A DNA stretch of 64,000 nt from Salmonella phage vB_SenS-3, in sequence record OR896822.1, one strand, 5' to 3'. The notes below the pieces were generated by a model. That model did not search any database, had not been told where the DNA came from, and was given only the letters and a program-made list of their open reading frames with translations. Below are positions 10,590 through 25,178 of this stretch, piece after piece. Position 1 is the first letter of the stretch; every line of letters starts with the position of its first letter. The position numbers and the translations under genes are program-made.

Positions 10590-10687
10590 TTCAAATAGCC
10601 CTTCGGGGCTATTATATTTAAATTTCATTTGCTTACTGAGTGAAATTCAAATATAATATACTTCTAATTTGACAGAAGGATTTAATA

Positions 10688-12034: not shown

Positions 12035-12063
12035 TTGCTTAAAGCCCTCGAATTTATTATAAT
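12035..12063 (+). promoter_or_regulatory. early-type promoter (TTGCTT N17 TATAAT)
   Basis: A-rich UP-like tract AAAAATTCA upstream. Confidence 0.55.
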
Positions 12064-12090
12064 ATTCGTATTGAAAGTGAGGAGGGCTTT

Positions 12091-12369
12091 ATGCGAATTT
12101 ACAACTCAAATTCATTAGGATTTAAACCTTTGAGAAAACGCGCACAATCTCCGCGTCAGATCAGAAAGGCAAATATTGGTGAGCCAGAAACTAGGCTTCC
12201 ACCACCTCCGGAGCAACGTCTAGTTTACTTAGACGAAGAATTAGCCGAAAGGGAACGTAAAGCTCAAGAAGAAATTGAGCGTAAGAAACTGTGTACTGCT
12301 CCTGCATATAATAAGGGTGGTTATCAGTACGTTTCCAGTGAGGAACAAGCTAAGATGATCGGCAGATAA
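12091..12369 (+). CDS. hypothetical basic protein
   Basis: 92 aa; own promoter upstream. Confidence 0.45.
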   Translation: MRIYNSNSLGFKPLRKRAQSPRQIRKANIGEPETRLPPPPEQRLVYLDEELAERERKAQEEIERKKLCTAPAYNKGGYQYVSSEEQAKMIGR

Positions 12370-15176: not shown

Positions 15177-15566
15177 TGATTTAAAAGACTAGTAAATCGG
15201 TAGACGAAAGCCCAAGCATCTTACCTCGCAGCAGCGGTTGAAATACGAGGTTAAATAAGACCGCTGACCATACTATAAAGTATAATCTATTGGAGATTAT
15301 CTTAATTTATTTTTCGGCAGATGTTGCATCTGTCAAAATAAAACAAGACGTCGTTGGTAGTACCAACACAACTTCAAAGATCAACGCTCAAGTATGAAAG
15401 CTGAAAAGTTAAAAGCACTCAAACTTCTAACCTTCTAAAGCTAAAAGATGCAAAGTATTCGTTGATGATTCAAACCCTAGATCAAAGGTACATGGCTCAT
15501 AAGATATGGCCTGTGGCGCCTCTAGGCTATTTATCGGTTTACTAGTTTCACAATTTAAAAATGTAT

Positions 15567-15595
15567 TTGCTAATTAGTTTAGTTTTCTGTATAAT
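15567..15595 (+). promoter_or_regulatory. early-type promoter (TTGCTA N17 TATAAT)
   Basis: Same architecture. Confidence 0.55.
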
Positions 15596-15625
15596 ATATT
15601 TTTAAATTGATGAGACGAGGCTATT

Positions 15626-17607: not shown

Positions 17608-18237
17608 TAATAGTGGGGTGCCGAAACCACTTATGTAACAACACTGCCGTCCTAGTATAATAGGTATTATTAGGGCTTCACCGCCTGAAGATGTGGGTTC
17701 GAGTCCCACGGTCGGAAAGAGTTGGATAACTGGTGCTTCTAATGGCGAAGCAATCGCAGGCAGTTGCGCACTGCCAAAACCACGCGGTAGTTGGTTCCAG
17801 GCTAACCAACCACTCTTGAAAAGTATATACTACGGTTTTGCTTGTTCAGGAAGCTTCGCATCGAAAATCGGAGGTGCGATTTTATCAGACCGCGTGGAGG
17901 ACGTCTCTCCGTTAAGTGACGAAAAGTGGGACGATTCAGGTAGAGCTGGATATGGAACACCTATACATATGCGGAGTGCGCACAAAGCATATTGCGGTGG
18001 TACTAAACGAAATTAGGAGTCATGACCTGCACAAGTTTAGTATGTCATAACCGATGTACATTCAGTACAAAAACCACTGAAGCTAAGATAGATAGTCACC
18101 TTGACTTAAACTGGAAGATATTGTCTGACGGAAGGGCTGCAGAGCTTAATCTGAGGGGGCTGACCCTACCTACCGTCGGGTATCTTTAAGAGTTCTTACG
18201 AGAACTCTTAAAGATACCTAAACATTAAGGAATACTG
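17608..18237 (+). ncRNA. candidate structured RNA (GC-rich, tRNA-like T-arm at 5' end, several hairpins)
   Basis: No RBS or promoter-proximal start; GTGGGTTCGAGTCCCAC T-arm at 17693-17709 without matching acceptor stem; local GC rise; many stems. Confidence 0.3.
18179..18218 (+). other. perfect 18-bp stem / 4-nt loop hairpin
   Basis: GGTATCTTTAAGAGTTCT / AGAACTCTTAAAGATACC inverted repeat just upstream of the ORF at 18238. Confidence 0.7.
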
Positions 18238-21990: not shown

Positions 21991-22018
21991 TTTGTACGCG
22001 TTAACAAATAAAGTAGTT

Positions 22019-22040
22019 ATAGCCCTCGCTTAGAGGGCTA
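22019..22040 (+). terminator. hairpin terminator candidate
   Basis: TAGCCCTC GCTTA GAGGGCTA stem-loop after pnuC. Confidence 0.5.
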
Positions 22041-22058
22041 TTATACAGAAATTTTCAC

Positions 22059-22087
22059 TTGCTTAATATAGAAAATTTCTGTATAAT
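22059..22087 (+). promoter_or_regulatory. early-type promoter (TTGCTT N17 TATAAT)
   Basis: Same architecture. Confidence 0.55.
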
Positions 22088-22117
22088 ATATTTATAAATT
22101 TGAGAGAGGAATCAAAT

Positions 22118-23769: not shown

Positions 23770-23798
23770 CTTCTCCAAGCAGAAATTTTAAAAATGTA

Positions 23799-23829
23799 CT
23801 TGCTTTTTACTTAAGATTTCTGCTATAAT
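23799..23829 (+). promoter_or_regulatory. early-type promoter (TTGCTT, TATAAT, 19-bp spacer)
   Basis: Slightly long spacer. Confidence 0.4.
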
Positions 23830-23858
23830 AGTTATATAAGTTGATGAGAGGAATCAGA

Positions 23859-24134
23859 ATGTTAAAACGTTTTGCAGCAACTGGTATTGAAAGCTCAGTA
23901 TGTAAATCCTGGGGTGGTTGGGAAGGTGAGATCGAGTGGCTTTATTTCTACAATGTAGAACTTCTTCCAGAGATCAAAGCTCAATGTATTAAGGCTGGTA
24001 TGGCTCCTGATGCTACGGCTGATGTTGAAATCAGCATGAATAAGCTAGAGGGTCGAGTAGTCACTGTTACTGATGAAGGTGAAGAGGTATTCGAACTTCC
24101 ATTCACTTTGAAAGTCACTCCTTCATTTGATTAA
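23859..24134 (+). CDS. hypothetical protein
   Basis: 92 aa; promoter at 23799. Confidence 0.45.
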   Translation: MLKRFAATGIESSVCKSWGGWEGEIEWLYFYNVELLPEIKAQCIKAGMAPDATADVEISMNKLEGRVVTVTDEGEEVFELPFTLKVTPSFD

Positions 24135-24142
24135 CTGATACA

Positions 24143-24183
24143 GCACTTGAGCAAGTTCTTTAAAATTTGACTTGCTCAAGTGC
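24143..24183 (+). promoter_or_regulatory. 13-bp inverted repeat overlapping the -35 of a promoter (candidate operator)
   Basis: GCACTTGAGCAAG ... CTTGCTCAAGTGC flanking TTGACT -35; TATAAT at 24196. Confidence 0.45.
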
Positions 24184-24325
24184 CTTAAAACTTGATATAA
24201 TAGTTACCTAATTTGGAAACATATCTGAATGAGAAGTAATTAAGCGAGTTGCTTTGAGGGATAAAGTCAGGATAGCCGGAAATATTCCACCTTGAGTTTA
24301 ACCGACTTACTTTTCATTCAAATAT

Positions 24326-24406
24326 GGGGGATTGGCTCAGTGGCGACGGCGCCTGGCTGTAGACCGGGTATATCACGCGGAGGTTCGAGTCCTCCATCCC
24401 CCACCA
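24326..24406 (+). tRNA. tRNA-Tyr (anticodon GTA)
   Basis: Acceptor GGGGGAT/ATCCCCC, anticodon loop CTGTAGA, T-loop TTCGAGT, CCA. Confidence 0.6.
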
Positions 24407-24414
24407 AAATTAAT

Positions 24415-24489
24415 GCACCTATCGTCTAATGGTTAGGACATCAGGATTTCAATCTGAGAATTGAACTCCGATTCTCCGTGGGTGTGCCA
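24415..24489 (+). tRNA. tRNA-Glu-like element (anticodon TTC), aberrant T-arm, possible pseudogene
   Basis: D-arm TCGTCTAATGGTTAGGACA and anticodon loop ATTTCAA look Glu-like; T-arm region forms a 6-bp stem with 9-nt loop instead of canonical T-arm. Confidence 0.35.
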
Positions 24490-24498
24490 ATTAATAAT

Positions 24499-24569
24499 TG
24501 GGGTACGCATAGGTTGCTAGTGGGCCTCCAAAACCCATGAAAAGGTTTCGAATACCTTTACCCCTGCCA
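24499..24569 (+). tRNA. tRNA-Trp (anticodon CCA), weak D-arm
   Basis: Anticodon loop CTCCAAA, T-arm AAGGT TTCGAAT ACCTT, acceptor 6/7 pairs, CCA. Confidence 0.5.
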
Positions 24570-24575
24570 ATATTT

Positions 24576-24650
24576 GCACCTTTAGCTGAGATGGATTAGC
24601 GCTTGCCTGAAGAGCTTGAGAGGTTCGTTCAATTCGAACAGGGTGCACCA
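24576..24650 (+). tRNA. tRNA-Phe-like element (GAA loop) with disrupted anticodon stem
   Basis: Perfect acceptor and T-arm (GTTCG TTCAATT CGAAC), loop CTGAAGA, but flanking CTTGC/GCTTG cannot pair. Confidence 0.4.
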
Positions 24651-24989: not shown

Positions 24990-25178
24990 ATGAAAGCACC
25001 TAAACCGAAATTAGTTAAGTTCGACTGCTGTGATACTGAAATCTTATTTACTAAGTTTGGTGAATTTAAGATGTGTGAATGTGGAACATGTGGTTACGAT
25101 CATGGTGATGGATATTATTGCAGAACCCTAGGGCCTTCTGAACTAATCCACTTCTCATGGCCGGAAAGTAAAGAATAA
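24990..25178 (+). CDS. hypothetical Cys-rich small protein
   Basis: 62 aa with CC..C.C..C..C pattern (possible zinc ribbon). Confidence 0.4.
   Translation: MKAPKPKLVKFDCCDTEILFTKFGEFKMCECGTCGYDHGDGYYCRTLGPSELIHFSWPESKE

What the first reader, a model, noticed from the sequence alone, without database searches (positions are those of the whole stretch)
24143..24201. Promoter whose -35 is embedded in a 13-bp inverted repeat
GCACTTGAGCAAG and CTTGCTCAAGTGC flank a TTGACT -35 element 17-18 bp upstream of TATAAT. Unlike the other ~20 promoters, this one carries a palindromic site suitable for a dimeric repressor or activator, or it forms a terminator-promoter overlap. It precedes the tRNA-Tyr operon.
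Basis: seen in the sequence. Interest (0 to 1): 0.45.

Follow-up and report, generated by a model that had tools for sequence, protein, structure and literature searches.

The report
Conserved hairpin overlapping T5-type tRNA promoter
This is the already-annotated early promoter P14a of a T5-like phage, with its -35 box sitting in one arm of an evolutionarily maintained 14-bp hairpin; it looks like a combined promoter/stem-loop cassette of a kind known from T4-like phages, not a repressor binding site.

Summary
The inverted repeat is real and far beyond chance. It is a perfect 14-bp repeat (24143-24156 / 24170-24183) with a 13-nt loop. The -35 at the proper spacing is TTGCTC (24172-24177, 18 bp), inside the right arm.

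The window is a T5-like Salmonella phage. The site is the ortholog of T5 promoter P14a, between the T5.072 homolog and tRNA-Tyr.

Across 27 distinct relatives the helix is kept:
- Two pairs changed on both sides.
- A 1-nt insertion in the right arm (atrejo-type, bulged) is matched by a 1-nt insertion in the left arm in this window.
- Interior one-sided changes are all G·U on the + strand.

The site is not unique. Seven of 30 T5-type promoters in the window have an upstream arm complementary to their own core.

Against an operator: the half-site does not recur, its spacing is unsuitable, and indels inside it are tolerated. Against a canonical terminator: there is no U-tract and the loop is 13 nt.

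The best reading is a PeSL-like composite promoter/stem-loop cassette. The RNA hairpin would cap or attenuate upstream transcripts, and the cassette is a mosaic junction. This function is inferred, not shown. Interest is modest.

The parts
24143..24156 (+). Left (5') arm of the hairpin, GCACTTGAGCAAGT; starts 8 nt after the stop codon of the upstream ORF
   Evidence: Relatives carry a 13-nt version; this window has one extra T that matches the extra A in the right arm.
24157..24169 (+). Loop, TCTTTAAAATTTG; equals the AT-rich -43 region that all T5-type promoters carry
   Evidence: AT-rich AAAAATT upstream of -43 is described in PMC3326045.
24170..24183 (+). Right (3') arm, ACTTGCTCAAGTGC; contains the -35 hexamer and the first 6 nt of the spacer
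24172..24177 (+). -35 hexamer TTGCTC (T5 consensus TTGCTw), 18 bp from the -10
   Evidence: The orthologous hexamer is annotated as part of a promoter in AKFV33.
24167..24172 (+).
   Evidence: It is TTGTCT in phage oselot.
24193..24202 (+). TG (24193-24194, extended -10 position) plus TATAATA (-10, 24196-24202)
   Evidence: Invariant in 19 aligned relatives except position -13.
23859..24134 (+). Upstream ORF, 91 aa, homolog of T5.072 (PHROG 4551, function unknown); its read-through transcript would carry the hairpin at its 3' end
23778..23829 (+). Neighbouring promoter (T5 P15c ortholog; TTGCTT 23800-23805, TATAAT 23824-23829) inside its own hairpin (arms 23778-23791 / 23811-23824); also starts 8 nt after the preceding stop codon
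   Evidence: Phage phiR2-01 has a 17-bp perfect version of different sequence.
24208..24325 (+). Predicted leader of the P14a transcript (start site inferred at about 24208); folds into a long stem (24220-24239 / 24307-24326) that abuts the tRNA
24326..24650 (+). tRNA cluster served by the promoter: Tyr 24326-24406, a Glu-like tRNA 24415-24486, a degenerate Trp-like stretch, and Phe 24576-24650

Best explanation
The site is the ortholog of phage T5 early promoter P14a. It is a host sigma-70 promoter (TTGCTC, 18 bp, TGnTATAAT) that drives the tRNA-Tyr/Glu/Trp/Phe cluster. It is fused to a stem-loop whose loop is the promoter's AT-rich upstream region and whose 3' arm is the -35 box plus the start of the spacer.

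Because the stem-loop lies entirely upstream of the start site, it exists as RNA only in transcripts that read through from the upstream promoter (P15c ortholog) across the T5.072-like ORF. There it forms a hairpin of about -24 kcal/mol, 8 nt after the stop codon.

I propose that this hairpin marks the 3' end of the upstream message. It would slow or partly stop read-through polymerase, and/or block 3' exonucleases once the transcript is cut. This would insulate the mRNA module from the tRNA module, which is then driven by its own promoter.

The whole roughly 80-bp cassette is conserved among otherwise mosaic relatives and serves as a crossover point. This is the same logic as the promoter-early stem-loop (PeSL) cassettes of T4-like phages.

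Shown: the promoter motifs and their orthology, selection-like maintenance of the pairing, recurrence of self-complementary promoters, and mosaic junctions at the cassette. Inferred: that the RNA rather than the DNA form matters, and that it attenuates or stabilises transcripts.
For: Identity of the locus.
- The window is 99.9% identical to Salmonella phages vaffelhjerte/polluks.
- The T5 record annotates 'promoter P14a' at the orthologous place, between T5.072 and tRNA-Tyr.
- AKFV33 annotates TTGCTC-N17-TATAATA there.

The helix is kept.
- 97% of cells are paired in 19 distinct sequences, against 19-44% when the partner is slid by 1-3 columns.
- Two pairs changed on both sides (C-G to U-A, A-U to G-C). 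Four pairs have G·U variants. Breaks occur only at the penultimate outer pair and at the loop-closing pair in oselot.
- The states 13/13 (T5), 13/14 bulged (atrejo, mar003J3, oselot) and 14/14 (this window) form a series that ends in a compensating insertion.
- All natural variants keep the + strand RNA hairpin at -16 to -24 kcal/mol. The minus-strand RNA falls to -10 to -12 in three lineages.

Placement.
- This hairpin and the P15c hairpin both start 8 nt after a stop codon.
- A Vibrio phage cassette with a different stem sequence starts 7 nt after a stop codon and also has TTGCTC in its 3' arm.

It belongs to a class.
- 7/30 window promoters and 3/13 T5 promoters have >=9-nt arms complementary to their own core, against a null of 1-4% (binomial 9e-5 and 6e-4).

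Mosaic junction.
- Homology to many relatives ends at 24224 and at 24999, just downstream of promoter cassettes.
- Th1 and L009 carry a hybrid hairpin. Their upstream flank is about 99% like one lineage and their downstream flank 91% like another.

Precedent.
- PeSLs are sigma-70 promoters with overlapping stem-loops that terminate transcription and recombine within the loop (PMC2839356; PMC4122927).
Against: - No U-tract follows the stem (CUUAAAACUUG) and the loop is 13 nt. The generic terminator scan does not call it, and neither the T5 nor the AKFV33 record annotates a terminator there. Efficient intrinsic termination is therefore unlikely.
- No transcript 3'-end data are available.
- The independent evolutionary events are few: one indel pair, two double substitutions probably from one lineage, and three one-sided changes. 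The two-wobble hybrids are recombinants, not stepwise intermediates.
- One variant (C·A at the penultimate pair) would be G·U on the minus strand. The strand assignment therefore rests on 4 pair types against 1.
- More distant phages have the same ORF followed by a promoter without any hairpin (Eos, Achelous) or by no promoter at all (Klebsiella phages, My1). The hairpin is therefore dispensable for promoter function.
- Perfecting of quasi-palindromes by replication template switching could produce matched changes without selection (own knowledge).
Confidence: 0.5

Rival explanations
1. DNA-level structure or mutational by-product. The inverted repeat acts as a cruciform or single-strand hairpin in DNA. 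It could tune -35 accessibility with supercoiling, or attract recombination or structure-specific nucleases. Alternatively it has no function and is kept perfect by intramolecular template switching during replication.
For: - The DNA hairpin is predicted at -15.6 kcal/mol, z = -5.9.
- Recombinant hairpins with a crossover between the arms exist, and mosaic breakpoints sit at promoter cassettes.
- The matched 1-nt insertions are the type of change that template switching produces in one step (own knowledge).
- Self-complementary promoters form a class.
Against: - A 13-nt spacer makes cruciform extrusion kinetically unfavourable (own knowledge).
- Variants with G·T on one strand would be A·C on the other, which weakens a two-sided cruciform. 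The + strand hairpin stays stable in all variants.
- The helix is retained across lineages that differ at 5 of the 8 flanking non-coding positions, which argues for constraint.
Confidence: 0.2
2. RNase III (or other double-strand-specific) processing site. It would separate the upstream mRNA from the tRNA precursor and leave a protective 3' hairpin, as at the intergenic sites of T7 early RNA.
For: - The position is intercistronic, right after a stop codon and before a tRNA cluster that must be processed.
- The fold of a 96-nt stretch adds a weak outer helix across an 8x8 internal loop.
- T7 places several RNase III sites next to promoters (own knowledge, Dunn & Studier 1983).
Against: - The conserved helix is only 13-14 bp, shorter than the roughly 20 bp usual for E. 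coli RNase III (own knowledge).
- The outer helix shows no consistent covariation: GAT/TTGA, GAC/TTGG, GAG/TTGA and GAC/TTGA all occur.
Confidence: 0.1
3. Efficient canonical Rho-independent terminator of the upstream gene that merely happens to overlap the next promoter.
For: - The stem is stable, with 7 G-C pairs, and begins 8 nt after the stop codon.
- Other promoters of this phage sit directly behind canonical terminators: 1876(-), 7646, 35582, 40921 and 43297, and T5 P10a.
Against: - Only 2 U in the 8 nt after the stem.
- The loop is 13 nt.
- It is not called by the scan that does find the canonical terminators of the same region.
- It is not annotated as a terminator in T5 or AKFV33, although AKFV33 was screened with TransTerm.
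Confidence: 0.1
4. Operator for a dimeric phage or host regulator that switches the tRNA operon promoter on or off by binding over the -35.
For: A perfect palindrome overlaps the -35, and the sequence is conserved in relatives.
Against: - There is no second copy of the half-site pair anywhere in the window. The weaker single matches lie at the -35 of other promoters or are chance.
- The half-site centres are 27 bp apart.
- Relatives carry 1-nt insertions inside the half-sites and paired changes that preserve complementarity, not sequence.
- A Vibrio phage has the same architecture with an unrelated stem sequence.
- The flanking ORFs have no DNA-binding domain.
- No sequence-specific repressor is known in T5 (own knowledge).
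Confidence: 0.07

Closest known systems
Phage T5 early promoter P14a (NC_005859 35524-35598, minus strand) and its annotated ortholog in phage AKFV33
   Same: - Orthologous position between T5.072 and tRNA-Tyr.
- Same -35 TTGCTC, TGnTATAATA, AT-rich upstream region and initial transcribed sequence.
- Same hairpin.
   Different: - T5 has 13-bp arms and a 17-bp spacer. This window has 14-bp arms and an 18-bp spacer, through one extra base in each arm.
- The public records annotate only 'promoter'. The inverted repeat is not annotated.
PeSL (promoter-early stem-loop) cassettes of T4-like phages RB49/phi1, PST, nt-1 (PMC2839356, PMC4122927)
   Same: - A strong sigma-70 early promoter with an AT-rich upstream region, physically overlapped by a stem-loop.
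- Intergenic, next to small ORFs of unknown function in a variable region.
- Repeated through the genome, with the stem in various positions relative to -35/-10.
- Recombination junctions at the cassette, including crossovers in the loop.
   Different: - Different phage family (Demerecviridae, siphovirus).
- The stems are not the G(n)-loop-C(n) type.
- Here the 3' arm is the -35 itself and the loop is the upstream AT-rich element.
- Terminator activity and mini-circle formation were shown for PeSLs and are untested here.
- No sequence homology is implied.
Canonical terminator-then-promoter junctions of T5 (e.g. the terminator overlapping P10a)
   Same: A hairpin after the stop codon of the upstream gene, immediately followed by or merged with the next early promoter.
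   Different: In those junctions a short-loop G+C-rich hairpin is followed by a T-run that doubles as the promoter's AT-rich region. Here the AT-rich region is the loop, the -35 is in the stem, and no T-run follows.
T7 intergenic RNase III sites adjacent to promoters (own knowledge)
   Same: An intercistronic hairpin that would be left at the 3' end of the upstream message, placed next to a promoter.
   Different: T7 sites are about 20-bp two-part helices with an internal loop. This helix is 13-14 bp and its outer extension is not conserved.

Membership tests
T5-type sigma-70 early promoter (P14a ortholog) | -35 TTGCTw, 17-18 bp spacer, -10 TATAATA | tested here: met
   TTGCTC 24172-24177, 18 bp, TATAATA 24196-24202. 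The consensus is from PMC3326045.
T5-type sigma-70 early promoter (P14a ortholog) | AT-rich region around -43 | tested here: met
   TCTTTAAAATTTG at 24157-24169 aligns with the aaTTtAAAAAtTcAt block of the other 29 promoters.
T5-type sigma-70 early promoter (P14a ortholog) | Orthologous position to an annotated T5 promoter | tested here: met
   It lies between the T5.072 homolog and tRNA-Tyr, and the sequence aligns base for base with T5 P14a.
T5-type sigma-70 early promoter (P14a ortholog) | ATATT discriminator said to be shared by all identified T5 early promoters (PMC7472727) | tested here: not met
   The discriminator here is AGTTA, as at the neighbouring P15c ortholog. Most other promoters of the window have ATATT. 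This is a subclass difference, not a reason to doubt the promoter.
T5-type sigma-70 early promoter (P14a ortholog) | Transcription actually starts about 7 nt after the -10 | not testable with these tools
   No transcript data are available.
Intrinsic (Rho-independent) terminator | Stable G+C-containing stem | tested here: met
   14 bp with 7 G-C pairs; the hairpin alone is -23.7 kcal/mol.
Intrinsic (Rho-independent) terminator | Short loop (3-8 nt) | tested here: not met
   The loop is 13 nt.
Intrinsic (Rho-independent) terminator | U-tract directly after the stem | tested here: not met
   The tail is CUUAAAAC, with 2 U in 8 nt. The site is absent from the terminator scan.
Operator palindrome of a dimeric regulator | Half-sites one or two helical turns apart | tested here: not met
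   The arm centres are 27 bp apart.
Operator palindrome of a dimeric regulator | Half-site sequence (not just complementarity) conserved | tested here: not met
   Relatives show paired substitutions and 1-nt insertions inside the arms.
Operator palindrome of a dimeric regulator | Further sites or a cognate regulator gene nearby | tested here: not met
   No second palindrome was found. The flanking ORFs have no DNA-binding domain hit.
PeSL-like composite promoter/stem-loop cassette | Sigma-70 early promoter with an AT-rich upstream region overlapped by a stem-loop | tested here: met
   The definition is from PMC2839356.
PeSL-like composite promoter/stem-loop cassette | Repeated motif class in the genome, next to small ORFs of unknown function | tested here: met
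   7/30 promoters are self-complementary against a 3.7% null. The flanking ORFs are PHROGs of unknown function.
PeSL-like composite promoter/stem-loop cassette | Cassette coincides with recombination or mosaic junctions | tested here: met
   Breakpoints lie at 24224 and 24999. Hybrid hairpins occur in Th1 and L009, with flanks from different lineages.
PeSL-like composite promoter/stem-loop cassette | Stem-loop terminates or attenuates transcription | not testable with these tools
   This needs reporter or in vitro transcription assays.
PeSL-like composite promoter/stem-loop cassette | Occurs in T4-like myoviruses (the group for which the term was coined) | tested here: not met
   The window is Demerecviridae. 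The comparison is therefore one of architecture, not of lineage.
E. coli RNase III site | About two turns of double-stranded RNA, often with an internal loop | tested here: not met
   The conserved helix is 13-14 bp and the outer extension is not conserved.

The most novel reading that the evidence does not exclude
T5-like phages (Demerecviridae) possess their own family-wide class of 'self-complementary promoters'. These are early promoters whose core (-35, spacer or -10) is base-paired with a purpose-built upstream arm. They would be functionally equivalent to the PeSLs of T4-like phages but independently evolved. They would act both as transcriptional insulators between small gene/tRNA modules and as preferred crossover points that shuffle those modules. 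The pairing would be actively maintained, as the compensating insertion seen here suggests.
Probability: 0.25. Interest if true: 0.5.

Novelty: new member of a known kind. Interest (0 to 1): 0.3.

Why it matters
T5 promoters are among the strongest known and are widely used in expression vectors, and the T5 tRNA region is a classic mosaic region.

If the stem-loops that overlap about a quarter of these promoters insulate transcription units and guide module exchange, two things would follow. It would extend the 'mobile regulatory cassette' idea from T4-like phages to a second, unrelated phage family. It would also explain why homology between T5-like genomes so often breaks just downstream of promoters.

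For annotation, the lesson is practical. The -35 of these promoters is TTGCTw, not the TTGACA-like hexamer that catches the eye. A palindrome over it need not mean a repressor.

Tried and rejected
- Extended 32-nt imperfect palindrome (24125-24156 / 24170-24201) as a longer helix or RNase III site. Rejected: the outer pairs do not covary.
- TTGACT as the -35. Rejected on spacing (23 bp) and because oselot lacks it.
- Ghost divergent promoter on the minus strand using the left arm as a -35. Rejected: no acceptable -10 follows (ATCAAA/TCAAAT here, TCGAAC in T5; read).
- Known RNA family. Rfam at E <= 1 finds only tRNAs in 17-33 kb.
- G·U 'intermediates' in Th1 and L009 as proof of stepwise RNA-level compensation. 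Downgraded: these phages are recombinants with flanks from two lineages.
- Hairpin as a universal companion of the T5.072 gene. Rejected: Klebsiella, Eos, Vibrio and Pectobacterium relatives lack it.
- Vibrio phage BLAST hits to the promoter as evidence of transfer. Explained instead by the shared promoter consensus.
- One pattern scan of viral contigs returned only unrelated loci. The metagenome scan and a second viral scan added few new hairpin variants.
- Literature searches found no T5 transcript-end map and no description of this repeat.

Full report
**The observation.** The repeat is in fact one base longer: GCACTTGAGCAAGT at 24143-24156 and ACTTGCTCAAGTGC at 24170-24183, separated by 13 nt. 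This is far beyond chance. The window holds 3 perfect inverted repeats of >=14 bp with loops <=40, against none in 25 dinucleotide-preserving shuffles, and 9 of >=12 bp against a mean of 0.08. As RNA, the 96-nt stretch folds at -24.6 kcal/mol, z = -5.2.

TATAAT is at 24196-24201 and tRNA-Tyr at 24326-24406. One part of the description is wrong. TTGACT (24167-24172) is 23 bp, not 17-18 bp, from TATAAT. The hexamer at the right distance is TTGCTC (24172-24177, 18 bp), and TG sits at the extended -10 position (24193-24194).

**What the locus is.** The window is a T5-like phage, 99.9% identical over this stretch to Salmonella phages vaffelhjerte and polluks. In the T5 reference record the orthologous spot, between gene T5.072 and tRNA-Tyr, is annotated 'promoter P14a'. 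In phage AKFV33 the annotated promoter is exactly TTGCTC-N17-TATAATA. This matches the published T5 consensus TTGCTw, 17-18 bp, TATAATA, with an AT-rich block near -43 (PMC3326045).

A regular-expression search finds 30 promoters of this type in the window. Aligned with them, the hairpin loop (TCTTTAAAATTTG) is the ordinary AT-rich upstream block, and the right arm is the ordinary -35 plus the start of the spacer. The unusual part is therefore the left arm, an upstream copy of the reverse complement of the promoter's own -35 region. The generic TTGACA-based scan does not list this promoter, because TTGCTC matches only 3 of 6 positions.

**Is the pairing maintained?** I collected the site from about 50 relatives, giving 27 distinct sequences.

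- In an alignment of 19 distinct sequences, 97% of cells form a standard pair, against 19-44% when the 3' partner is slid by 1-3 columns.
- Two pairs change on both sides (C-G to U-A, A-U to G-C).
- Four pairs show G·U variants.
- The only breaks are at the penultimate outer pair and, in one phage, at the loop-closing pair.

The clearest case is an insertion series. T5 and many others have 13-nt arms on both sides. Atrejo, mar003J3 and oselot have a 13-nt left arm and a 14-nt right arm, leaving a bulged A. This window and its closest relatives have an extra T in the left arm exactly opposite that A, which restores a perfect 14-bp helix.

All natural variants keep the + strand RNA hairpin between -16 and -24 kcal/mol. 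The complementary-strand RNA drops to -10 to -12 in three lineages.

Caveats:
- The independent events are few.
- The phages with two wobble pairs (Th1, L009) are recombinants, not stepwise intermediates. Their upstream 250 nt is about 99% like one lineage and their downstream 200 nt 91% like another.
- One variant (C·A) would favour the other strand.
- Template switching at quasi-palindromes can perfect inverted repeats without selection (own knowledge).

**It is not unique.** In fact the longest stretch of upstream sequence complementary to a promoter's own core is >=9 nt in 7 of 30 promoters. The expectation is 3.7% when cores are paired with the upstream regions of other promoters (binomial 9e-5). 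The same holds for 3 of 13 promoters in a 20-kb piece of T5.

Examples:
- An 18-bp perfect repeat at 22039-22088, with the -35 in the loop and the -10 in the right arm.
- 10610-10658.
- 4043, where the -35 is again in the right arm.
- The immediately upstream promoter (P15c ortholog, arms 23778-23791 / 23811-23824). Like the P14a hairpin, it starts 8 nt after the preceding stop codon. In phage phiR2-01 it is a 17-bp perfect helix of partly different sequence.

A Vibrio phage of another subfamily has the same layout as P14a with an unrelated stem: stop codon, 7 nt, GCAGAGAGCA, AT-rich loop, TGCTCTCTGC containing TTGCTC, 17 bp, TATAAT. It lies behind a non-homologous ORF.

**What it is not.**

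*Operator.* The half-site pair occurs nowhere else in 64 kb. The arm centres are 27 bp apart. Relatives tolerate insertions inside the arms and keep complementarity rather than sequence. The neighbouring ORFs have no recognisable DNA-binding domain.

*Canonical intrinsic terminator.* The loop is 13 nt and the tail is CUUAAAACUUG. The scan that does find the phage's real terminators does not call it. Neither T5 nor AKFV33 annotates a terminator here, although both annotate others.

*RNase III site.* The conserved helix is too short, and the outer extension suggested by the fold does not covary.

*Requirement for promoter function.* More distant phages have the same ORF followed by a plain promoter (Eos, Achelous) or by none.

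**Mosaic junction.** Hundreds of relatives share homology with the window only up to 24224, which is 23 nt past the -10. Beyond that, at least two unrelated leader types follow. Pairwise BLAST of 21-27 kb against seven relatives puts recurrent breakpoints at 24224 and at 24999, the latter just downstream of the next promoter. Promoter cassettes also cross-match one another at 78-88% over 60-85 nt. The hybrid hairpins of Th1 and L009 place a crossover between the two arms.

**Most likely mechanism.** The hairpin lies wholly upstream of the inferred start site (about 24208). As RNA it can therefore exist only in transcripts that read through from the upstream promoter. There it sits 8 nt after the stop codon of the T5.072-like ORF.

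I propose that it defines the 3' end of that message. It would do so by attenuating read-through, or by shielding the end from exonucleases after the tRNA precursor is cut away. P14a then restarts transcription for the tRNA cluster. The conserved cassette would double as a homology patch for module exchange.

This is the logic shown experimentally for the PeSL cassettes of T4-like phages. Those are strong sigma-70 promoters overlapped by stem-loops 'in various positions'. One stem-loop reduced downstream reporter expression as much as rrnB T1, and crossovers were mapped inside the loop (PMC2839356; PMC4122927).

Shown here: the motifs, orthology, helix maintenance, class enrichment and junctions. 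Inferred: RNA rather than DNA as the active form, and any effect on transcription or stability. Confidence is about 0.5. The main rival (about 0.2) is a DNA-level role or a mutational by-product.

**Novelty and score.** The promoter is already annotated in public records. I found no record or paper that describes the overlapping helix, its compensating insertion, or the enrichment of self-complementary promoters in T5-like phages. However, composite promoter/stem-loop cassettes are a known kind. I file it as a new member of a known kind, with interest 0.3.

Noticed in passing
window 24208-24326: The roughly 118-nt leader between the P14a start and tRNA-Tyr folds into a long structure (-32 kcal/mol). 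Its 20-nt closing stem (24220-24239 / 24307-24326) ends exactly at the tRNA 5' end. Phage oselot keeps only the closing stem, with the interior deleted. AKFV33-type phages have an unrelated AT-rich hairpin at the same place. It may be a processing element or one of T5's unannotated stable RNAs.
   Followed up: partly
window 24415-24486 and 24497-24570: Two tRNA-like stretches between tRNA-Tyr and tRNA-Phe are missed by ARAGORN. The first scores 35 bits as tRNA in Rfam, and relatives annotate tRNA-Glu there. The second has a Trp (CCA) anticodon loop but is found by neither tool, so it may be a decaying tRNA-Trp.
   Followed up: partly
window 22015-22088: A G+C-rich hairpin (ATAGCCCTC/GAGGGCTAT) is followed directly by an 18-bp perfect inverted repeat. 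The repeat puts the -35 of promoter 22059 in its loop and the -10 in its right arm. The promoter upstream of the orthologous gene in T5 (P15a) has neither. The cassette at 10590-10658 has the same two-hairpin layout.
   Followed up: partly
window 24224 and 24999: Recurrent homology breakpoints against T5, AKFV33 and five other relatives lie 23-38 nt downstream of the -10 of two consecutive promoters. The promoter cassettes therefore bound the exchangeable modules.
   Followed up: partly
window 23824-23835 and 24196-24207: The P15c and P14a orthologs have the discriminator AGTTA after TATAAT. Most promoters of the window have ATATT, the motif reported as common to all identified T5 early promoters (PMC7472727). 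This may be a promoter subclass.
   Followed up: no
window 18179-18218: An 18-bp perfect inverted repeat with a 4-nt loop (GGTATCTTTAAGAGTTCT TACG AGAACTCTTAAAGATACC) lies between two tRNA genes. It is the strongest short-loop hairpin in the window.
   Followed up: no
window 17645-17718: ARAGORN calls a tRNA with anticodon TCA ('SeC'), and Rfam scores it 33 bits as an ordinary tRNA. It may be an opal-suppressor-like or degenerate phage tRNA.
   Followed up: no
L003 2388-2443 (Vibrio phage Hades); same in L050-L052: A Thalassavirus promoter has the same stop-codon / hairpin / -35-in-3'-arm layout as P14a but an unrelated stem (GCAGAGAGCA / TGCTCTCTGC). A second plain promoter follows 60 nt downstream.
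   Followed up: partly
window 12040-12091 and 15551-15609: Two further perfect inverted repeats are tied to promoters. One runs from the spacer of promoter 12035 to past its start site. The other encloses the whole promoter 15567 in its 35-nt loop.
   Followed up: no
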